NCBI GenBank assembly: GCA_031370645.1
Contig: JANMQV010000006.1
Location: 6,473-70,472, forward strand
Origin: Candidatus Eiseniibacteriota bacterium
GTDB taxonomy: Bacteria; Eisenbacteria; RBG-16-71-46; SZUA-252
Direction of reading: 5' to 3'
DNA length: 64,000 bases
Within the stretch, counting starts at the first letter, position 1. Each line of letters opens with the position of its first letter. Of this stretch, positions 55,123 through 63,697 are shown piece after piece. A model generated the notes under the pieces. It searched no databases. It was not told the origin of the DNA and worked only from the letters and a program-made list of their open reading frames with translations. Both the position numbers and the translations under genes were made by a program.

Positions 55123-56682
55123 ATGCGCGCCATGAACGATTCGAAACGGGACGACCCGGCCGCGCCCCCGAGTACAACGAAGAACGGGTCGACGGCTGCC
55201 GGCGCTCCCGTAGCGCCGCGCGAACCGTCGGCCCGCGCGCTTCGCTCACGCGAACATCGAATTCCCCGCCGGCATCGCGTCTTCGTGAATCGGAATCTCC
55301 GCATGACGCGCATCCGCGCGATCGGCTTCGATCTCGATCATACCCTCGCGCACTACGACCCGATCCCGGTCGAAGATCTCGCGTTCGACCTGACGAAGAA
55401 GAAACTCGTGGAGTTCCGCGGCTACTCTCCCGAGATCTTGAAGTTCGCCTATGACCCCCACTTCGTGGTTCGGGGGCTCGTGGTCGACAAGAAGCGCGGA
55501 AATCTCCTCAAGATGGACTACTTCAATTTCGTCTCCCGCGCGACACACGGGCTCACGTCGCTCCGTTCCGAAGAACGGAGGCGGGCGTACCGCACGTCGC
55601 GCGTCCGAGTCGGTCACGAGAACTACGTCTCGGTGGACACGCTCTTCCACCTCCCCGAAGTCTATCTCTACGCGGTTCTCGTCGATTTCCTGGAGAGGCA
55701 GAAGCCCGCCGGGGGAGTCGACTACGAAAAGGTCTACGGCGATGTCCGCGCCATGATCGACGAGGCGCATCGGGACGGGAGCCTCAAGTCGATCATCACG
55801 AGCGACCTCGATCGTTACATTCGATTCGATCCCGAACTCCGTGTCGTCCTCGAGGAGTTCCGGCGCGCCGGGAAGAAACTCTTCCTCCTGACGAACAGTG
55901 AGTGGTCGTACACGGACAAGCTGCTTCGCCACCTCATGGAGCGGGGGCGCGGCGCGCCGGAGCACTGGTCGGAACTCTTCAACGTCGTCCTGGTCGATGC
56001 GCAAAAGCCGGGGTTCTTCGCGGAGACGGAAGCGCCGTCGCCGATTCCGGAACTGAAGGGGCAGAAACTGGCCGCGATCACCGGGAGCGGAGGAGGCGGA
56101 GCGTATCTCGAGCGAGCGCTCGGCGCCGCCGGCGAGCATGTGCTCTATTTCGGGGATCACACCTACGGCGACATCTTGCAATCGAAGCGGGCCCTCGGCT
56201 GGCGCACTGCCATGCTCGTCCCCGAGCTCGACCGGGAGATTCAGGTAACGCAGGACTACGCCAAGGAGTTCGACCGGCTGTCGAAACTCTCTTCGGAACG
56301 TCATCACATCGAGATCGACAAGGCGGCCGTGGGTCGCGAGCATCGCCGGCTCGCCCAAGTTCTCGCGGACGGTGATACGAACGACGCCGCGAAGCGGGAG
56401 GAAATGACGAAGCGGATCGAGGAAATTCCGGAACAGATCGCCGAGATGGAGCGGCGGAGCCTCGAGCTCTCCGGAGAAATCGAGAGCGTTCAGGTGAAGA
56501 TCGACCGCGCCTACAATTCGCGTTGGGGGTCGCTCTTCCGGGAAGGCAACGAGTCGAGCCGCTTCGGACATCAGTTGAAGGACTTCGCCTGCCTCTACAC
56601 GAGCCGGGTTTCGAACTTCCTTCACTACCCCTGGAACTACTACTACCAATCTCCTGTCGGCTACATGCCGCACGATATCTAG
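55123..56682 (+). CDS. HAD-IG family 5'-nucleotidase (cytosolic purine 5'-nucleotidase cN-II-like)
   Basis: 519 aa. RVFVNRNLRMTRIRAIGFDLDHTLAHY (HAD motif I DxDxT). LLTNSEWSYTDK, YFGDHTYGDILQSKRALGWRT and C-terminal HYPWNYYYQSPVGYMPHD all parallel the eukaryotic cN-II. Confidence 0.85.
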   Translation: MRAMNDSKRDDPAAPPSTTKNGSTAAGAPVAPREPSARALRSREHRIPRRHRVFVNRNLRMTRIRAIGFDLDHTLAHYDPIPVEDLAFDLTKKKLVEFRGYSPEILKFAYDPHFVVRGLVVDKKRGNLLKMDYFNFVSRATHGLTSLRSEERRRAYRTSRVRVGHENYVSVDTLFHLPEVYLYAVLVDFLERQKPAGGVDYEKVYGDVRAMIDEAHRDGSLKSIITSDLDRYIRFDPELRVVLEEFRRAGKKLFLLTNSEWSYTDKLLRHLMERGRGAPEHWSELFNVVLVDAQKPGFFAETEAPSPIPELKGQKLAAITGSGGGGAYLERALGAAGEHVLYFGDHTYGDILQSKRALGWRTAMLVPELDREIQVTQDYAKEFDRLSKLSSERHHIEIDKAAVGREHRRLAQVLADGDTNDAAKREEMTKRIEEIPEQIAEMERRSLELSGEIESVQVKIDRAYNSRWGSLFREGNESSRFGHQLKDFACLYTSRVSNFLHYPWNYYYQSPVGYMPHDI

Positions 56683-58057
56683 ACCCGGAGCGCCTCCACC
56701 AAGAGTTCCACGGCGCGCGCCACGTGCTCGGGCGCCATGCGGCGCGAGGGGTAGAGCGAGAGCACGTTCCCACCGCGCCCTCCCGGAAGGACGAGAAGCC
56801 CGCGCCGCATCAGGTCGCGACAGATCATGGCCGCGCGAGCGGGGTCGGGCGCCTTGGTAGCGGCATCGGACACGAGATCGATCGCGAGCATGAGTCCCGC
56901 CTGGCGAACGTCGCCGACACCGCGGCACGATTTCACCTCCCTCAAGCCCGATTCGAATCCACGCGCAACCCCCGCCGCTTCCTCCTCCGTCGACTCCAGG
57001 AGTGAAAGGGCGGAGAGCGCGCCGGCGCACGCGATCGGATGTGCGTAGAACGTGCTCGCGTAGGGCGCCTCGCCCGATGCGGGAAGATGCTTCGCCCAGA
57101 CTTCCATGACGCGCGGCGTCCCAAGCAGCGCCGCGATGGCCACGCCTCCTCCGATCCCCTTCCCCGTCACGAGCAAGTCGGGCTCGGCCGCGGCGCCACC
57201 GTTCGACCGACTCCACGCCCAGAACGGCCCGGTCCGCGCAGCCCCGGTCAGGATCTCGTCGTAGATCACGAGCATTCCTCTCGAGCGGGCGCGCGCGACG
57301 AGTCGCGGCAAGAACTCGGGTGGCGGCACGATAACGCCGGCGCGTCCCTGGATCGGTTCCACGAGAACCGCGCCGGGGGGGTCGGGGCCGTCGCACGCCC
57401 TTTCGACTTCCTCCCACCCTTCCTCGAAGCAGGCGAGGTCGCACCCGCCGCCTTCGCGCTCCAGGGGACAGCGATAGGGATCGGGGAAGGGAATGTGGAT
57501 CGCGCGACGGGAACCGGGCGGCCGAAGCAGTCCGGGCGACGCGGGAAAGTGCGTGACCTCGAGCGCGGCTCCACTCTGCCCGTGGTAGCCGCCCTCGAAC
57601 GCGACGACGCGGCGGCGTCCCGTGGCGAGCGCCGCGGTCTGAAGCGCGAGATCGACCGCGTCGGATCCCGTCGAGGCGAAGAGCACTTTGGAGAGCCGGC
57701 CTCCGAGCTTCGACAAACGGCGCGCCAATTTTTCCCTGGTGGCGTGGGGCTGCAAATCGCCCAGCCCCTGCGCCATCGTTCGGGCCTGGGCCGCGACGGC
57801 GCGCGCGATTTCGGGAGCCGCGTGGCCGAGGGAGGCGACGCCGAATCCCGACGTGAGATCGAGATACCGATTCCCGTCGAGATCCTCGACAACGGAGCCC
57901 TTCGCTCGTGCCCAGACGATCGGTTGCGAATCCGCTCCCCAGATCGCCGCCCCCTCCGCGCGTCGCAGCCGTTTCGAAGCGGCCAGCGACTTCGGGCCGG
58001 GCGGAGGAGTAACGATCTCCGGCAGTTCGTCCCCGCGCAGCGGCGGACGGCGCGTCA
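56679..58057 (-). CDS. Class III pyridoxal-phosphate aminotransferase (GabT/ArgD-like)
   Basis: Probable GTG start about 58057 (VTRRPPL...) overlapping the EamA stop. YDEILTGAARTG and the PLP-lysine region LLVTGKGIGGG. About 459 aa. The track ORF's 5' 170 aa are an artefact. Confidence 0.8.
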
Positions 58058-58990
58058 CGCCTTCCCCCGCCGCGTCTCCACCCACGTCACCCCCGCAAGG
58101 ATGAGCAGGGCGCCGAGGAAGAAACCGCCCGTGAAGCGCTCCCGGAAGACGAGCCAGGAGAGAATCGACGTGAGGATCGGCTGCGTGTTCTGGGCGACGG
58201 CGACCTTGGCCGTTTCCAAATGGCGGAGCGCGTACATATAGAGAGGGTACGCGATCGCCGAGGTGCCTATCGCCAGGTAAAGAATGGCGCCCCAGGTCGG
58301 TAGCGTGATGCTCGAAAGCTTCGGAATCGCGCCGGGAATGAAGAGAGCGGGAAGCGTCAGAAGGGTCCCGCTCACGATGGCGCCCGTCGTGACCGCCATG
58401 CCGTCGTACTTGGCCAGGAGCGGCTTCGATAGGACCGTGTAGAGCGCCCAGGCGAAGACGGCGACGAGAATGAGGAGATCGCCGCGGAGCAGGGCCATCT
58501 CCCGCTTCAAGCCGCGCTCGGTGAGGATGACGATGACGCCGCCGAACGCGACCGCGATGCCGACGAGCGAAGACCACGGGGTTCGTTCTCGAATCATCGC
58601 CTTCGCGAGAAGAAAGACGACGAGCGGCGTCAGCGCGTAGAGGAGCGCCGCGTGGCTTGGTGTGGAGTGGACCATCCCGAAGAGAAAGAATCCCTGATTC
58701 ATCGGAACGACGAGAAAGCCGAGAAGCGCCACGCGGGGCCAGTCCCGGCGCTCGATTCCCGACACGCCTCGCGCCCGCTGCCAGCCCCAGAGCGAGACCG
58801 AGGCGATCACGAAACGAAGCAGGGCCACCGGGAGCGCGCCGATCGCGGCGACGGCGCCTTTCGCGAAGAGGTGGGTGGCGCTGGCCAAAATTTGATTCGC
58901 GCCGAGCGCCAGGGCGACCCGGGGACCTTGATCGTGGGGACGGATGAGGGCAGTTCCTTTCGCGTGGGGCGTGAGCCGAGGGCCGGGCAC
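58055..58990 (-). CDS. EamA/DMT-superfamily transporter (10 TM)
   Basis: Two EamA repeats (ALPVALLRFVIASVSLWGW...; LILVAVFAWALYTVLSKPLL...). The start is placed at a GTG near 58990 preceding TM1 (uncertain). The track ORF's N-terminal extension is unlikely to be real. Confidence 0.65.
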   Translation of the reverse strand: MPGPRLTPHAKGTALIRPHDQGPRVALALGANQILASATHLFAKGAVAAIGALPVALLRFVIASVSLWGWQRARGVSGIERRDWPRVALLGFLVVPMNQGFFLFGMVHSTPSHAALLYALTPLVVFLLAKAMIRERTPWSSLVGIAVAFGGVIVILTERGLKREMALLRGDLLILVAVFAWALYTVLSKPLLAKYDGMAVTTGAIVSGTLLTLPALFIPGAIPKLSSITLPTWGAILYLAIGTSAIAYPLYMYALRHLETAKVAVAQNTQPILTSILSWLVFRERFTGGFFLGALLILAGVTWVETRRGKA

Positions 58991-59114
58991 CGAGACGGCA
59001 TCTCCCGGGCTCCGTTCGGGCGGCAGTTTAGCCAATGGAATCCCTCCGCCGCAACCCGCTGGCGCCGCAAGCCGACTTAGGGTATGCTGCTCGGCTCCGG
59101 AGGATACGATCACA

Positions 59115-61798
59115 TGATGGATACCGATTTTCGGAATTACCTCCGCGCCGCTCAAGGGCCGGAGCCAGATATCGCCCTGAGCAACCCGCGGTGGCACGAA
59201 ACCGAAGTCGTCGCGAAAAAACTAATCGAGACCAGCGCCGCGGAACCGGGGCTCAAGTCGCTTCTGAACGAGCCGCTGCGAAAGAAGCGCTGGGATCTCC
59301 TGCTCCTTTCCGGGCTCCTGCATCAGGCGCTCGGACAGCGAATGCCGGCGGTCGAGTGCTTCGAGGTCGTCGGCGACAAATGCATCGCGGCGAACGACCG
59401 AGACGCCGTCATTCATCTCCTTCCCCGCTTCCTGGTTCCCGATCCCGCTCCCCAAGCCGTCCGATTTCTCCATTACATCGCGAAGGGCGCTCCCTCGGAA
59501 GAAGAACGAATCGAGGCGCTCCGCCACGCGATTGCCATTCGCCCCTCCGATCCCGACCTCCATCTCGATCTCGCCGGCGCGCTCGAGCAGGCCCAGGACC
59601 TCGAGGCCGCGCGCGAGCACCGGCTCCGCTATCTCGAGCTGTCGCTCGAGGAGACGCGACCGAAGGGGCTCTCGGAGGCGGTCGCGCGCGCGGTCGAGGA
59701 AGACCTGGCCGCCGAGCCGAAGCGAGTCGGCACCATCGTCGTCCGATACGCGGGCAAGGTCGCCTGGAAGGATGCCGAGGCGGTCCTCGAGCTGGCCATG
59801 CCCGAGTTGGAGAAGTTCGCGGGAGGGCTCCTGCCTTGGGACGATCTCGCGGTCCTTCTTCCCAAGATTCTCGCCACGCCTGCGGGGCGTGAAACGGCCG
59901 CGGAGCTCGTGAAGATCGCGGTCGCGCGCGAGCCGCAGCCGGCGGCGATCGTCGAGGGCTCGGGGATTCTCGATTCCTCCGTCGATGCGAACGTCGTCGT
60001 CGATCGCGTCCCCAAGATTCTTGCCCTACCCCCCGGCGCCTACGTGACGCACAGCGCGTGGGGCCTCGGCCGCGTCACGGCGACCGACGGCGAATCGGTG
60101 AAGCTCGACTTTCCGAACCGCGTCGGGCATCAGATGTCGTTCGCCATGGCTTCGAAGTCGCTCCTTCGGCTCCACGCCGACGGACTCCGCGTCCTTTCGA
60201 TCGAGGAGCCCGAACGGCTCCACGCGCTGGCGAAGGCCGGCGACCCCGATCTCCTGGCGCGCGCCCTGCGCGAAGTGGGTGGCAAGGCCTCGACCGCGAA
60301 TTTGAAGCCGCGGTTCGAGATTGCCTACCCTGACGGCGATTGGTCGGCCTACATCAAGAAGGCGAAAGAAAAGATTAAGGAGGATCCTCGCTTCGACCTG
60401 AGCGAGGCCTACAAGAACGTCTACTCGCTCGCCCCCGAAGGACAGGCGGGACGAGGTGCGGTGCTGCCTCGACTCTCTTCTCGTGCCGCGGTGAAGGGTC
60501 TCGCCGTCGTGAAGAAGTTCATGCGGGAGCATCCGGAAGAGGAGACGCGGCTCCGCGAGCATGCGGGACCGCTCGTTGCCCGCTGGATCGGCGATCCCGC
60601 GCTCGACCTCACGGGCCGCGCCCAAGCACTTTGCTACGCGGTCGGTTGGAACAGCATGAGCCGCGAGGAAGCGATCGAGGCGCTCGGCGACCTCATCCAC
60701 GAAGGGCTCTCTCCGGACGATCTCAACATCAGTCAATATCAGGAACTCCTCATGGATCTCGCCGAGGGTTCGCCCGACGAGGAGGCGTTCCTTTGGCGCG
60801 CTTTCGAGAGCCGCCTTCCGCGGCTTCGCGATCGCGGACGCCTGCGGCTCCAGGACTTGCTCGGCGACGCCTACACGCGAGCTATCGAACAGCGCGTGCA
60901 GCGAAGCGCCGATACCCCGGGCCTCACGTCGCGGCTCATCGAACATTTCGCCGTGCAGCCGGAGGACGCCGGGGCCCCGCCCCAGGCCCTTCTGCTCGTC
61001 GCGGCCATCCGGCTCCTGGAGAAGGAACTGGCCGAGGGGGTTCCCGAGCGGCTCCTCGCGCTTCTCGACGAAGGGGGCGCCTATCGCGTGCGGTTCCGGG
61101 TGACCCAGCCCGACGCGGAGGCGATGGAAGCGATCGAACGCACCGTGCTCGCGTGGAGCGGGAGCGAGCGAAGACTCGTCCCGATACTCGACTTTCTCCG
61201 AGTGATCGGACATCCGGGAATCGCCGACGCCTACGAGGAGCGCCGCAAGGCGCGCGCGAAGAGCCTCCTCGAGGGAAAATCGACCGAGGACGTCGACACG
61301 CGCTTCACGCTCATGACCAAGACGACCTACCAGCGGCTGGAGTCGGAACTCAAGCGGCTCGCGCTGGAACTGAAAACGACGATCCCGGCCGCCATCGAAC
61401 GCGCCCGGCAGTTGGGCGACCTGAAGGAGAACGCCGAGTACGACGCCGCGAAGGCCAAGCAGGCGAACACGGCCCATCGCGTGCAGGAGTTGATCACGCT
61501 CCTCGAAGCGACGCAGATTCTCGAGTCGCTCGAGATCGACCCGAAGCGGGTCGGCGCAGGTACGGAGGTGTTCCTCACTCCGCTCGCCGCGGGCGAAGCG
61601 CCGGTCCGGTTCTGGATCCTGGGCGAGGGGGATCACCTCCTCGGGGAGGGCATTCTCTCCTACCGGGCGCCACTCGCGCGGCCGCTCCTCGGACTGAACG
61701 CCGGCGCCGAGGTAGCGATCGAATTCGAATCCGGCACGCGGCGATTCCGTATCGAGTCGATCCGCAAGCGGCTTCCGGGCGATCCCGTTCCGGTCTAA
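59115..61798 (+). CDS. Large (~894 aa) transcription-factor-like protein: helical/TPR-like N-terminus, central CarD/TRCF-type RNAP-interacting motif, and C-terminal GreA/GreB-like domain
   Basis: ATG at 59115 with a perfect GGAGGA 9 nt upstream. Central PGAYVTHSAWGLGRVTATDGESVKLDF matches GDYVVHxxHGIGRY of CarD_CdnL_TRCF. The C-terminal 160 aa read MTKTTYQRLESELKRLALELK...GDLKENAEYDAAKAKQ...RVGAGTEVFL...YRAPLARPLLGLNAGAEV, matching the GreA coiled-coil tip (D..ENAEY) and the FKBP-like domain. Confidence 0.7.
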
Positions 61799-61863
61799 GC
61801 CGCATCCAAAGAAGCTAAGTCCCCGACGTCCGGGGAGAAAACCAACGGAAAGGAGAATCGTCC

Positions 61864-62475
61864 ATGTCCAAGCACGTGGTGAAGCCCCTTCCCTACGCGA
61901 ACGATGCGCTGAAGGGAATCGGCTCGAAGACGATCGAAATCCATCACGACAAGCTCTACGCGGGCTACGTGAACAAGCGGAATGAAATCGAAGAGGCCCT
62001 GGCGAAGGTGGACCGGAGCAAGGCGAATCAGATCTACTCCGACATGCGCGGCATGAAGCACGAGGAGACGTTCGCCGCGAACGGCCAGATTCTCCACGAA
62101 ATCTATTTCGCCGTGATGGGCGGCGACGGCCAGCCGAAGGGCGAAGTGGTCGACAAGATCAAGGAGGACTTCGGAACGTTCGCCGCGTGGGAGGAGGACT
62201 TCAAGGCCTCCGGCATGTGCGCTCGCGGATGGGTCGTCCTCGCCTTCGATCCGACCGACGGCCGCCTCCACAACTTCATCGGCGACTCGCAGAACCAGGG
62301 CGGCGTGTGGGGCACCTTCCCGGTTCTGAACGTCGACACCTACGAGCACTCCTACTTCATCGATTACGGCTCGGATCGAAAAGCCTACCTCGAGGCCTTC
62401 ATGCGGAACATCAATTGGGACGAGGTCAACCGGCGCTACCTGGCCGCCTCCTCCATGGCGATGGCCCGGAAGTAA
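61864..62475 (+). CDS. sodA: Fe/Mn superoxide dismutase
   Basis: 203 aa. LPYANDALKG, IEIHHDKLYAGYV and DTYEHSYFIDY signatures. Lower GC than the neighbourhood. Confidence 0.9.
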   Translation: MSKHVVKPLPYANDALKGIGSKTIEIHHDKLYAGYVNKRNEIEEALAKVDRSKANQIYSDMRGMKHEETFAANGQILHEIYFAVMGGDGQPKGEVVDKIKEDFGTFAAWEEDFKASGMCARGWVVLAFDPTDGRLHNFIGDSQNQGGVWGTFPVLNVDTYEHSYFIDYGSDRKAYLEAFMRNINWDEVNRRYLAASSMAMARK

Positions 62476-62482
62476 CGACTCC

Positions 62483-62507
62483 GCGGCGGCCGGAAACGGC
62501 CCTCCGC
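62483..62507 (+). terminator. Putative intrinsic terminator downstream of sodA (GC stem with GAAA tetraloop)
   Basis: GGCCG-GAAA-CGGCC perfect hairpin beginning 8 nt after the sodA TAA stop, extensible to about 9 bp. It is followed by a modestly U-containing tail (CUCGAUUG). Confidence 0.35.
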
Positions 62508-62730
62508 TCGATTGCAGTACGGCGGGTGTCCTTGCAAAATGCACGGACCCCGCCTTTCGTTTTGCCCCCTCCTTCGTCCCGCGTTCCCCAACTGACTTGT
62601 TATCAATAGGTTGGTAAAACCGCCGCGGAAGCCCTTCGGCGGCATGGCCTTTGCTCTACACCCCAGGGGTTTTTCCAATTGTGATCGTATTTCGTTCGCG
62701 ATGGGGATCGCGACAAACAAGGAGACCGAC

Positions 62731-63267
62731 ATGAAGACGGTGAAGGTGTTCGTCATCGCCCTCGCGGCGCTTGGAGCGCTGGCGGCGTTGAACGGCTGCA
62801 CGGACGTGTCGTCGCGAAACATTCTGCAGGTTGTGAGCGTGAACGCCGGCGACGTCTATTACAGCGACTTGGTGACCGACTCGGGCACGGTGGTGGCCGA
62901 CGCGGTTCAGCTGAAGGTGACGAACATCCCGAACGACGGCGGCGCGACGCTTGCGCCCGGCACGCCCTTTTCACAGATCATTCTCACCGGCTACACGGTC
63001 ACGTTCGACAACGGCGTCTATCCGCCGGTTTCGGGCGGCATCTCGGGCGTCGTGAATTCCGGAGAGCAGGCCGATGTCTCGATCGCGCTGACCGACATTG
63101 GCGTGAAGGCTTCGCTCTCGCCGTTTCTCGCCACGAGCACCACGGCTCGAATTACGCTGACCGGGTTCAACCATATCAACGGCGGGAACAACGGCGAAAC
63201 GGTTACCGCGCGCGCCAACCTTCCCGTGCAGGTCGCGAACTTCAAGGACTCCGACATCGCCAACTGA
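62731..63267 (+). CDS. Lipoprotein of unknown function
   Basis: Internal ATG with AAGGAG 7 nt upstream. Signal peptide MKTVKVFVIALAALGALAALNGC (lipobox LNGC). Ser/Thr/Gly/Val-rich beta-type sequence, 178 aa. Confidence 0.6.
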   Translation: MKTVKVFVIALAALGALAALNGCTDVSSRNILQVVSVNAGDVYYSDLVTDSGTVVADAVQLKVTNIPNDGGATLAPGTPFSQIILTGYTVTFDNGVYPPVSGGISGVVNSGEQADVSIALTDIGVKASLSPFLATSTTARITLTGFNHINGGNNGETVTARANLPVQVANFKDSDIAN

Positions 63268-63322: not shown

Positions 63323-63697
63323 CTATTTCCGACGGCCTGCTCGAAGATTCCAGCGGTAGGTTTCGAGAGAAATGCGCCCGTTCGGATCGAACGCGACGCC
63401 CTCGCACTCCAGGCGGAACCGCTGCGGAAGCTCTCCGCCCGCGATTCCCCTCCCGAGGCTAATCCGGCCCTGGGCGTTCACCACCCGATGCCAGGGGATT
63501 CGAATTCCCTCCGGCGTGGCGTGGAGCGCGTATCCCACCAAGCGTGCCTGTCCCGGCATCCGTGCCACACGCGCGATATCGCCGTAGGTCGCGACACGGC
63601 CGCGAGGGATTTTCCGGACGGCCGCGTAGATGAGTCGATAGGTCGTCGAGGGCGCCGGCGCCCGTGGAGCGCGCCGCTTCACCGCCGGCCGCTTCAC
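63323..63697 (-). CDS. Alkyltransferase-like protein (ATL; MGMT DNA-binding domain with Trp replacing the acceptor Cys)
   Basis: 124 aa. YGDIA helix-turn-helix region and IPWHRVVNAQG. The canonical Ogt active site is IPCHRV. PWHRV is the ATL (YbaZ/Atl1) signature. Confidence 0.75.
   Translation of the reverse strand: MKRPAVKRRAPRAPAPSTTYRLIYAAVRKIPRGRVATYGDIARVARMPGQARLVGYALHATPEGIRIPWHRVVNAQGRISLGRGIAGGELPQRFRLECEGVAFDPNGRISLETYRWNLRAGRRK

What the first reader, a model, noticed from the sequence alone, without database searches (positions are those of the whole stretch)
59115..61798. Chimeric 894-aa protein joining a CarD/TRCF-type RNAP-interacting motif to a C-terminal GreA/GreB domain
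The C-terminal 160 aa align convincingly with GreA. They include the acidic coiled-coil tip (GDLKENAEYDAAKAKQ, compared with GreA GDLSENAEYDAAKE) and the FKBP-like domain.

The middle carries PGAYVTHSAWGLGRVTATDGESVKLDF. This matches the CarD_CdnL_TRCF RNA-polymerase beta-subunit-binding signature (GDYVVHxxHGIGRY...).

Outside those two segments:
- The N-terminal ~330 aa are helical/TPR-like.
- The region between the CarD-like motif and the GreA-like domain is also helical.

The gene has an ideal GGAGGA Shine-Dalgarno sequence and sits just upstream of sodA.

A protein that could dock on the RNAP beta lobe and insert into the secondary channel would be an unusual regulator. I am not aware of this architecture being characterised.
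Basis: partly seen in the sequence, partly recalled or inferred. Interest (0 to 1): 0.65.

Follow-up and report, generated by a model that had tools for sequence, protein, structure and literature searches.

The report
Long GreA with RNA-polymerase-type Tudor domain
This gene encodes an oversized version of the transcript-cleavage factor GreA whose extra N-terminal part contains a small Tudor domain of the kind that helicases and CarD/Mfd use to grip RNA polymerase; it belongs to a widespread, already catalogued but functionally unexplained family of "long GreA" proteins (also in spirochaetes, Chlamydia relatives and planctomycetes).

Summary
The ORF is real: window 59114..61798 (+), 894 aa. 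The C-terminal 160 aa are a genuine GreA: both Pfam domains pass their cut-offs, the acidic tip D769/E772 is invariant, and the model superposes on GreA/GreB.

The central motif does not score with CarD_TRCF_RID. It does sit on a confidently predicted five-strand barrel whose 14 best PDB fold matches are all bacterial RNAP-binding Tudor domains: UvrD/PcrA first, then CarD, CdnL and Mfd. A diverse family profile reaches the T. thermophilus UvrD Tudor at E=7.7e-5. The four PcrA residues needed for RNAP binding correspond to H313, W316, H339 and M341, all invariant in this family.

The architecture is not new. A GreA-free profile finds 1,115 representative clusters. They include spirochaete proteins that pass NCBIfam PRK14720 and PVC-type proteins matching PRK06330 ("transcript cleavage factor/unknown domain fusion protein"). 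The conserved core is Tudor, winged helix, helical domain, GreA. The TPR-like N-terminus varies in length.

I found no paper explaining the extension. The most likely mechanism is a cleavage factor tethered to the RNAP beta subunit. That mechanism is inferred, not shown.

The parts
59099..59104 (+). Shine-Dalgarno GGAGGA, 9 nt before the start codon
   Evidence: read directly from the sequence
59114..61798 (+). Long GreA coding sequence, 894 aa plus stop
   Evidence: ORF list. Full-length homologs of 52-92% identity begin at the same Met.
59114..60025 (+). aa 1-304: helical-repeat (TPR-like) N-terminal extension, the part that varies in length across the superfamily
   Evidence: AF2 model is all helices with pLDDT about 90. 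TPR hits are sub-threshold: TPR_19 20.1 bits against 25. Designed TPR chains score E about 1e-4. The extension is absent or shorter in other classes.
   Evidence: Strands 310-313, 317-324, 328-333, 336-342 and 351-353. The top 14 Foldseek PDB hits are UvrD/PcrA/CarD/CdnL/Mfd Tudor domains. The family profile scores E=7.7e-5 against the Tth UvrD CTD. H313, W316, G317, G319, H339 and M341 are invariant.
60185..60433 (+). aa 358-440: winged-helix-like domain packed after the Tudor barrel, with conserved Trp cluster around W410
   Evidence: Secondary structure H-H-H-strand-H-H-strand. Lower-ranked Foldseek hits are winged-helix domains (CUL4B WH, Zur, ORC, Rpa2 WH). W410 is kept in 58/59 diverse members. 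Pfam PF27167 probably maps here, within aa 341-490.
60488..61264 (+). aa 459-717: all-helical connector domain of constant length between the Tudor/WH module and GreA
   Evidence: AF2 helices with pLDDT 90-95. No Pfam match. The Tudor-to-GreA spacing is about 420-445 aa in all size classes.
61265..61300 (+). aa 718-729: disordered flexible linker
   Evidence: pLDDT below 50
61310..61519 (+). aa 733-802: GreA N-terminal coiled coil
   Evidence: PF03449 at 57.1 bits against a cut-off of 24.5. Helices 736-754, 756-766 and 774-798.
61415..61441 (+). aa 768-776: GDLKENAEY, the acidic tip of the coiled coil (D769, E772)
   Evidence: translation. Invariant in 45 homologs. Kept in nearly all long GreAs of other phyla.
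61544..61765 (+). aa 811-884: GreA C-terminal globular domain
   Evidence: PF01272 at 32.0 bits against a cut-off of 26.9. The whole GreA part superposes on 1grj, 4wqt and 3aoi with target-normalised TM 0.76-0.78.
61864..62475 (+). Fe/Mn superoxide dismutase gene, conserved downstream neighbour (context only; possibly co-transcribed)
   Evidence: Sod_Fe_N and Sod_Fe_C pass their cut-offs. The adjacency is conserved in Eisenbacteria-type loci. No terminator-like site lies in the 66-nt gap.

Best explanation
The gene encodes the Candidatus Eisenbacteria version of the 'long GreA' family.

Cleavage module. The C-terminal 160 aa form a functional Gre-type transcript-cleavage module. The coiled coil enters the RNAP secondary channel, and its acidic tip (D769, E772) helps the active site cleave backtracked RNA. 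This step rests on strong homology.

N-terminal module. The 730-aa N-terminal part is an accessory module: a TPR-like solenoid, a Tudor barrel, a winged helix and a helical connector. A 12-residue flexible linker joins it to the Gre module.

Proposed role. The Tudor barrel is a second RNAP-docking point on the beta subunit. The most likely site is the one used by its nearest relatives, the PcrA/UvrD Tudor domains: a TGE beta-hairpin in the SI1/beta2-lobe region. The beta1 site used by CarD and Mfd is less likely. Two-point attachment would keep the cleavage factor resident on elongating RNAP. It could also let it compete with UvrD/PcrA-type factors for the same docking site. This tethering step is inferred, not shown.
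For: GreA module:
- Both Pfam domains pass their cut-offs.
- E=3.7e-23 to E. coli GreA 1grj.
- Fold match with target-normalised TM 0.76-0.78 to GreA, GreB and RNAP-bound Gfh1/GreA chimera.
- Tip residues are invariant and conserved across phyla.

Tudor domain:
- Confident models, pLDDT 88-89.
- The top 14 Foldseek PDB hits are exclusively bacterial RNAP-binding Tudor domains. They include 7egt UvrD CTD (target TM 0.82, rmsd 1.2 A, 28% id), 9dqs UvrD1 (34% id), 5dma PcrA, 7egs UvrD CTD bound to the RNAP lobe, 4xax and 4kbm CarD bound to RNAP beta, Mfd and CdnL. Eukaryotic Tudor, PWWP and SH3 domains appear only below them.
- The diverse profile A5 hits UvrD/UvrD1/PcrA Tudors at E=7.7e-5, 1.3e-3 and 0.021.
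- Of 59 members, 21 touch PcrA_UvrD_tudor, 19 CarD_TRCF_RID and 23 DUF3553.

Binding-face residues: PcrA H681A, W684A, K712A and L714A each severely reduce RNAP binding (PMC5397179). The aligned positions here are H313, W316, H339 and M341. All four are invariant in the family, and across phyla they are kept in 45, 51, 51 and 41 (+16 L/I) of 59.

Module behaviour: the Tudor/WH unit also occurs at the N-terminus of proteins without GreA. The Tudor-to-GreA spacing is constant at about 420-445 aa, which suggests a fixed geometric span.
Against: - No binding or cleavage assay exists for any long GreA in the literature I could search.
- The window protein itself is below threshold for every Tudor Pfam model.
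- All Foldseek E-values for the small domain are 0.01-0.07; none is <=0.001.
- K712 of PcrA is His here, so the contact chemistry may differ.
- UvrD-type Tudor domains also bind UvrB and other partners through the same face (7egt; PMC8318588), so the partner need not be RNAP.
- Inter-domain geometry is uncertain (pTM 0.54), and no complex model could be made.
- The Eisenbacteria rpoB could not be inspected for the docking hairpin.
Confidence: 0.55

Rival explanations
1. The Tudor/WH module does not bind RNAP. It binds another partner that carries the TGE 'helicase interaction' hairpin, such as UvrB. This would link the Gre factor to nucleotide excision repair or to another complex.
For: The best single structural match, 7egt, is the UvrD CTD in complex with UvrB, not RNAP. 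PMC8318588 shows that PcrA-type Tudor domains use one face for RpoB, UvrB and other partners.
Against: A GreA domain acts only on RNAP, so an RNAP-proximal partner is the simplest reading. The same Tudor class binds RNAP in 7egs, 6yi2, 4xax and 4kbm.
Confidence: 0.17
2. One reading: the motif is a CarD/TRCF-type RID that docks on the beta1 lobe as CarD and Mfd do. The protein would then be a CarD-like initiation or TCR-site factor that also reaches the secondary channel.
For: CarD, CdnL and Mfd are among the top fold hits. 19 of 59 family members give weak CarD_TRCF_RID hits, best 1.8e-4. P0201 scores 18.3 bits.
Against: The window protein gives no CarD_TRCF_RID hit at all. Profile searches of PDB sequences find only UvrD/PcrA Tudors, never CarD or Mfd. 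Alignments to full-length CarD are poor beyond the barrel (rmsd 12-14 A, TM below 0.3), so there is no CarD-like C-terminal domain. PcrA-type and Mfd-type Tudors use different sites on beta.
Confidence: 0.13
3. The N-terminal 730 aa are a scaffold, chaperone or regulatory domain unrelated to RNAP docking. Examples would be TPR-mediated binding of a stress signal or partner protein. The Tudor barrel would be only a structural element.
For: The TPR-like solenoid is a typical protein-protein scaffold. The conserved sodA adjacency hints at a stress link. PMC10995303 cites a reported chaperone activity for E. coli GreA.
Against: The TPR part is the variable, dispensable part of the superfamily, whereas Tudor/WH/connector is the conserved core. 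The residues matching the PcrA RNAP-contact face are the most conserved in the module.
Confidence: 0.12
4. The protein is a Gfh1-like inhibitor that occupies the secondary channel without stimulating cleavage.
For: Gfh1 structures are among the fold and sequence matches.
Against: Both acidic tip residues are invariant here and across long GreAs. E. coli GreA is the best sequence match: E=3.7e-23 against 3.5e-10 for Gfh1. The model matches the RNAP-bound conformation (target TM 0.78) rather than free Gfh1 (0.44).
Confidence: 0.03

Closest known systems
Spirochaete-type long GreA (NCBIfam NF011309 / PRK14720, 906-position model)
   Same: Same overall length (~900 aa) and same order of parts: TPR-like N-terminus, Tudor/WH at about residue 300-450, helical connector, C-terminal GreA. 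True members (P0203 at 738.8 bits, above the 714 cut-off) are retrieved by the window family's GreA-free profile at E about 1e-18.
   Different: The window protein scores only 133.6 bits, far below the equivalog cut-off. N-terminal identity to the spirochaete proteins is about 30% or less (L031). It is a separate, phylum-specific branch.
PVC/Chlamydia-type long GreA (NCBIfam NF004969 / PRK06330, 'transcript cleavage factor/unknown domain fusion protein', 718 positions; C. trachomatis CTL0004, 715 aa)
   Same: Same conserved core (Tudor/WH, ~430-aa spacing, GreA with acidic tip), seen in Planctomycetia and Lentisphaerota representatives. The extension is likewise unexplained: a 2024 review only notes that the protein is 'unusually large' (PMC10995303).
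   Different: These proteins have only about 120 aa before the Tudor domain, not about 300. The window protein scores 85.5 bits against a cut-off of 697.
PcrA/UvrD C-terminal Tudor domain (Pfam PF21196; PDB 5dma, 7egt, 7egs, 9dqs, 6yi2)
   Same: Same five-strand Tudor fold (target TM 0.65-0.82). Shared G-x-x-V-x-H-x-x-W-G-x-G-x-V signature. Equivalents of the RNAP-contact residues H681 and W684 are identical, and L714 is conservatively replaced by Met.
   Different: Here the domain is internal, is followed by a winged helix, and is attached to a Gre factor rather than an SF1 helicase. K712 is replaced by His. The window sequence is below the Pfam cut-off (13.1 against 23.9 bits).
CarD/CdnL and Mfd (TRCF) RNAP-interaction domain (Pfam PF02559)
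   Same: Same fold class. Both are bacterial domains that bind the RNAP beta subunit by beta-sheet addition.
   Different: No sequence-model match for the window protein. No CarD-like C-terminal domain. CarD and Mfd bind beta1, a different site from PcrA/UvrD-type Tudors.
Canonical GreA/GreB (about 158 aa; PDB 1grj, 2p4v)
   Same: Coiled coil with acidic tip plus C-terminal globular domain. Both Pfam domains pass.
   Different: Canonical Gre factors have no N-terminal extension. The window protein is below the TIGR01462 greA cut-off (106.1 against 139 bits).

Membership tests
GreA/GreB transcript cleavage factors | N-terminal coiled-coil domain (Pfam PF03449) above the gathering score | tested here: met
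   57.1 bits against 24.5, aa 733-802
GreA/GreB transcript cleavage factors | C-terminal globular domain (Pfam PF01272) above the gathering score | tested here: met
   32.0 bits against 26.9, aa 811-884
GreA/GreB transcript cleavage factors | Two acidic residues at the coiled-coil tip (E. coli GreA D41/E44 by my recollection; motif GDLxENAEY) | tested here: met
   G768-D769-L-K-E772-N-A-E-Y776. Invariant in 45 homologs and kept across phyla.
GreA/GreB transcript cleavage factors | Three-dimensional fold superposes on solved Gre factors | tested here: met
   Target-normalised TM 0.76-0.78 and rmsd about 3 A to 1grj, 4wqt, 3aoi and 9a7t
GreA/GreB transcript cleavage factors | Stimulates endonucleolytic cleavage of backtracked RNA by RNAP | not testable with these tools
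   needs a biochemical assay
NCBIfam TIGR01462 greA (canonical) | Score at or above 139 bits | tested here: not met
   106.1 bits
NCBIfam NF011309 PRK14720 (spirochaete-type long GreA, equivalog) | Full-length score at or above 714 bits | tested here: not met
   133.6 bits, with the best stretch being only the GreA part. Homology of the N-part to true members is nevertheless shown by the GreA-free profile.
NCBIfam NF004969 PRK06330 (Chlamydia-type GreA fusion, equivalog) | Full-length score at or above 697 bits | tested here: not met
   85.5 bits
CarD_TRCF_RID (Pfam PF02559) | Sequence-model score at or above 23 bits | tested here: not met
   No hit at E<=10 for the whole protein or its pieces, and none at E<=1 for the isolated domain. 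Relatives reach 18.3 bits at best.
CarD_TRCF_RID (Pfam PF02559) | Tudor-like barrel fold shared with CarD/Mfd RID | tested here: met
   4l5g, 4xax, 4kbm, 2lqk, 6aca and 6ac6 are among the top 14 Foldseek hits
CarD/CdnL proteins | Helical C-terminal domain following the RID, as in CarD | tested here: not met
   Alignments to full-length CarD have rmsd 12-14 A and TM 0.26-0.29. The following domain here resembles winged helices instead.
PcrA_UvrD_tudor (Pfam PF21196) | Sequence-model score at or above 23.9 bits | tested here: not met
   13.1 bits, E=0.088 for the window domain. Relative P0244 reaches 23.8 bits.
PcrA_UvrD_tudor (Pfam PF21196) | Profile-level sequence homology to solved PcrA/UvrD Tudor domains | tested here: met
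   A5 profile against 7egt_B E=7.7e-5, 9dqs 1.3e-3, 5dma 0.021. Full-length UvrD and PcrA chains are hit only at their C-terminal Tudor.
PcrA_UvrD_tudor (Pfam PF21196) | Conserved RNAP-contact face (PcrA H681, W684, K712, L714) | tested here: inconclusive
   H313 and W316 are identical. H339 replaces Lys and M341 replaces Leu. All are invariant in the family. The mapping of K712 and L714 goes through the Tth UvrD alignment and is partly inferred.
PcrA_UvrD_tudor (Pfam PF21196) | Binds the TGE hairpin of RNAP beta SI1 or UvrB | not testable with these tools
   rpoB and uvrB are absent from the window and loci, and no complex prediction was available
TPR repeat proteins | Any Pfam TPR model above its gathering score | tested here: not met
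   Best is TPR_19 at 20.1 bits against 25. The region is helical-repeat by structure only.
Pfam PF27167 (name unknown to me) | Match to the family model | not testable with these tools
   Precomputed on most homologs but absent from the local Pfam copy. By fragment mapping it lies within aa 341-490.

The most novel reading that the evidence does not exclude
Long GreAs are Gre factors held on elongating RNAP by a UvrD/PcrA-type Tudor domain that occupies the same beta-subunit hairpin the repair helicase uses. In Eisenbacteria, spirochaetes and the PVC group (including Chlamydia), anti-backtracking by Gre and pro-backtracking repair by UvrD would then compete directly for one docking site. This would explain why these lineages carry a five-fold enlarged GreA.
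Probability: 0.25. Interest if true: 0.75.

Novelty: new member of a known kind. Interest (0 to 1): 0.5.

Why it matters
Long GreAs occur in important pathogens. By my recollection they include Borrelia and Treponema-type spirochaetes. In Chlamydia trachomatis the 715-aa GreA is listed with no greB (PMC10995303). A 2024 review could only say that the size suggests a different function.

Recognising a conserved RNAP-interaction-type Tudor domain plus winged helix as the core of the extension turns that puzzle into specific experiments:
- point mutants at H313/W316 equivalents,
- competition with UvrD or Mfd,
- mapping on beta SI1 against beta1.

For this window itself the result is mostly a clarification. 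The gene is the Eisenbacteria ortholog of a catalogued family, not a one-off chimera.

Tried and rejected
Searches that were unavailable or found nothing:
- The window has no second GreA, but 64 kb cannot show whether the genome has a canonical short GreA.
- Rfam found nothing in the window. The promoter scan found no sigma-70-like site near the gene.
- The genome-collection scan with the central-module profile used a single peptide pattern. It recovered almost only Eisenbacteria, 31 loci, so it is not a taxonomic census. The representative search serves that purpose better.
- The search for the TGE helicase-interaction motif in the window and loci found nothing, because rpoB and uvrB are not present.
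- Ten literature searches found no study of the long-GreA extension. Several were noisy because 'grea' matched 'great'.

Ideas considered and rejected:
- An apparent loss of the acidic tip in many ~720-aa proteins was an artefact of my too-strict regular expression. They read GDLRENFEY or GDLSENHEY.
- A CarD-like two-domain arrangement: similarity stops at the barrel.
- A Gfh1-like inhibitor: the tip acids are invariant.
Full report
**Observation**

The window holds one long ORF ending at 61798. Its longest form starts at ATG 59084 and gives 904 aa. GGAGGA lies at 59099-59104, 9 nt upstream of 59114. Homologs begin MMDADFR..., matching this start. A Fe/Mn superoxide dismutase gene follows after 66 nt, and an EamA transporter gene diverges upstream.

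**GreA part**

- GreA_GreB_N (aa 733-802, 57.1 bits) and GreA_GreB C-terminal (aa 811-884, 32.0 bits) both pass Pfam's cut-offs.
- A family profile matches E. coli GreA (1grj) at E=3.7e-23.
- The AF2 model of this part superposes on GreA, GreB and RNAP-bound Gfh1/GreA chimera with target-normalised TM 0.76-0.78.
- The tip motif GDLKENAEY lies at 61415-61441. D769 and E772 are invariant in 45 homologs and kept in nearly all distant long GreAs.

This part of the finding is confirmed. A cleavage-competent Gre module is the straightforward reading.

**Central motif**

No CarD_TRCF_RID match appears at E<=10 for the protein or its pieces, or at E<=1 for the isolated domain. On its own the domain gives only Tudor_1_RapA (E=0.024), PcrA_UvrD_tudor (0.088) and DUF3553 (0.1).

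The motif is still not a chance resemblance, for four reasons.

- Structure. The full-length model is confident (mean pLDDT 88.8). It places the motif on a five-strand barrel, aa 310-353. A separate model of aa 300-446 agrees (pLDDT 88).
- Fold search. Foldseek against the PDB returns only bacterial RNAP-binding Tudor domains as its 14 best hits:
  - T. thermophilus UvrD CTD (7egt: target TM 0.82, rmsd 1.2 A, 28% identity)
  - M. smegmatis UvrD1 (9dqs, 34% identity), PcrA (5dma), and E. coli UvrD CTD (6yi2; 7egs, solved with the RNAP lobe)
  - CarD (4l5g, plus 4xax and 4kbm solved with RNAP beta), CdnL (2lqk) and Mfd (6aca, 6ac6)
  
  E-values are modest (0.012-0.07), as expected for a 50-residue domain. 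The far more numerous eukaryotic Tudor, PWWP and SH3 entries rank below.
- Sequence profiles. The Eisenbacteria-only profile hits only UvrD1 and UvrD Tudors, at E=0.027 and 0.051. A profile of 59 diverse family members improves this to 7.7e-5, 1.3e-3 and 0.021 (PcrA). It hits full-length UvrD and PcrA chains only at their C-terminal Tudor. Among those 59 members scanned individually, 23 touch DUF3553, 21 PcrA_UvrD_tudor and 19 CarD_TRCF_RID.
- Binding-face residues. In PcrA, H681A, W684A, K712A and L714A each severely reduce RNAP binding (PMC5397179). The aligned residues here are H313, W316, H339 and M341. All four are invariant in the Eisenbacteria family. Across phyla they are kept in 45, 51, 51 and 41 (+16 Leu/Ile) of 59 sequences. 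The mapping of the last two goes through the Tth UvrD alignment and is partly inferred.

**Rest of the protein**

- aa 1-304 are helical repeats with only sub-threshold TPR scores.
- aa 358-440 form a winged-helix-like domain with a conserved Trp cluster; W410 is kept in 58/59.
- aa 459-717 are an all-helical domain with no family match.
- aa 718-729 are disordered.

**Family**

The word-based search found 109 close, full-length relatives, mostly named Candidatus Eisenbacteria. Genome loci at 92-93% protein identity carry the same label, so the window almost certainly comes from that phylum.

A profile of aa 1-722, with the GreA part left out, found 1,115 representative clusters at E<=1e-3 and 435 at E<=1e-10. 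Sampling them shows four classes:

- about 860-950-aa proteins. These include Spirochaetota members that reach or approach the NCBIfam PRK14720 cut-off over their full length (P0203 738.8 and P0170 706.2 bits, against 714).
- about 715-760-aa proteins from Planctomycetia and Lentisphaerota. These match PRK06330, 'transcript cleavage factor/unknown domain fusion protein'.
- shorter forms that start directly with the Tudor domain.
- proteins with the Tudor/WH module but no GreA.

In all GreA-bearing classes the distance from Tudor start to GreA start is about 420-445 aa. The conserved core is therefore Tudor, winged helix, connector and GreA, and the TPR-like N-terminus is a variable add-on.

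The window protein is below the equivalog cut-offs of both NCBIfam models (133.6 and 85.5 bits). It is a separate branch of a known superfamily. Most homologs also carry a precomputed Pfam family, PF27167, which my Pfam copy lacks. By fragment mapping it lies within aa 341-490, the winged-helix region.

**Literature**

I found no study of the long-GreA extension. A 2024 review notes that C. trachomatis GreA is 'unusually large' (715 aa), lists no greB, and concludes only that its function may differ (PMC10995303).

**Mechanism**

- Supported by strong homology: a Gre cleavage module with an intact catalytic tip.
- Inferred: the Tudor barrel docks on the RNAP beta subunit, giving two-point attachment through a connector of fixed length and a flexible linker.
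- Likely site: PcrA/UvrD-type Tudors, the nearest relatives, bind a TGE hairpin in the beta SI1 insertion and the same motif in UvrB. Mfd and CarD use beta1 instead (PMC8318588).
- From my own knowledge, not tested here: SI1 lies near the rim of the secondary channel in E. coli, where DksA also contacts it. That would make simultaneous binding geometrically plausible.

Rivals are that the Tudor binds UvrB or another partner, that it binds beta1 as CarD does, or that the N-terminal part is a scaffold unrelated to docking. A Gfh1-like inhibitor is unlikely because the tip acids are invariant.

**Limits**

- I could not determine whether the genome also has a short GreA (one search covers only the window).

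**Verdict**

This is a new member of a known, uncharacterised kind. The useful output is a concrete, testable hypothesis for what the long-GreA extension does.

Noticed in passing
window 58055-63267; loci L001-L030: The gene order EamA transporter (-) | long GreA | Fe/Mn SodA | orf62611 is conserved in essentially all Eisenbacteria-type loci, down to 52% GreA identity. No terminator-like site lies in the 66-nt greA-sodA gap, so the two may be co-transcribed.
   Followed up: partly
window 63323-63697 (-): This 124-aa protein matches the MGMT DNA-binding domain (PF01035, 83.7 bits). It reads PWHRVV where the active-site PCHRV would be, which by eye looks like an alkyltransferase-like (ATL) protein rather than an active methyltransferase.
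   Followed up: no
window 62611-63267 (+): This conserved downstream ORF has no Pfam match. An internal Met is followed by MKTVKVFVIALAALGALAALNGC, which looks like a lipoprotein signal peptide with a lipobox, so the true start is probably about 40 codons downstream.
   Followed up: no
loci L004, L006, L007, L009, L013, L014, L026, L029: These MAG contigs are labelled Acidobacteriota, Limnocylindrales, Omnitrophota, Bacteroidota, Hyphomicrobiales, Binatia, Dormiibacterota and Latescibacterota. They carry the long GreA and, where the contig extends far enough, the same neighbours; where SodA is present it is 79-95% identical. This suggests mis-binned or mislabelled contigs.
   Followed up: no
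proteins P0178, P0201, P0202, P0230, P0234, P0242, P0244, P0255: The Tudor/winged-helix module also sits at the N-terminus of ~530-760-aa proteins with no GreA domain. They fall into at least two families whose ~500-aa C-terminal parts have no Pfam match. P0242 has a sub-threshold GrpE-like C-terminus (24.1 against 25.8 bits).
   Followed up: partly
window 60341-60355 (aa 410-414): The winged-helix helix carries a W-x-x-W-W signature in most of the superfamily. W410 is kept in 58/59 and W414 in 56/59. The window protein and its closest relatives have Tyr413/Ile414 instead.
   Followed up: no
homologs P0001-P0109: Most homologs carry a precomputed Pfam family PF27167 that is missing from the local Pfam copy. 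Fragment mapping places it within aa 341-490, so curators have already defined part of the N-terminal region as a family.
   Followed up: partly
window 55123-56682 (+) and 56679-~57900 (-): Upstream neighbours are a cytosolic 5'-nucleotidase family protein (PF05761, 461 bits) and a class-III aminotransferase (234 bits). The nucleotidase is also conserved in the Eisenbacteria loci.
   Followed up: no
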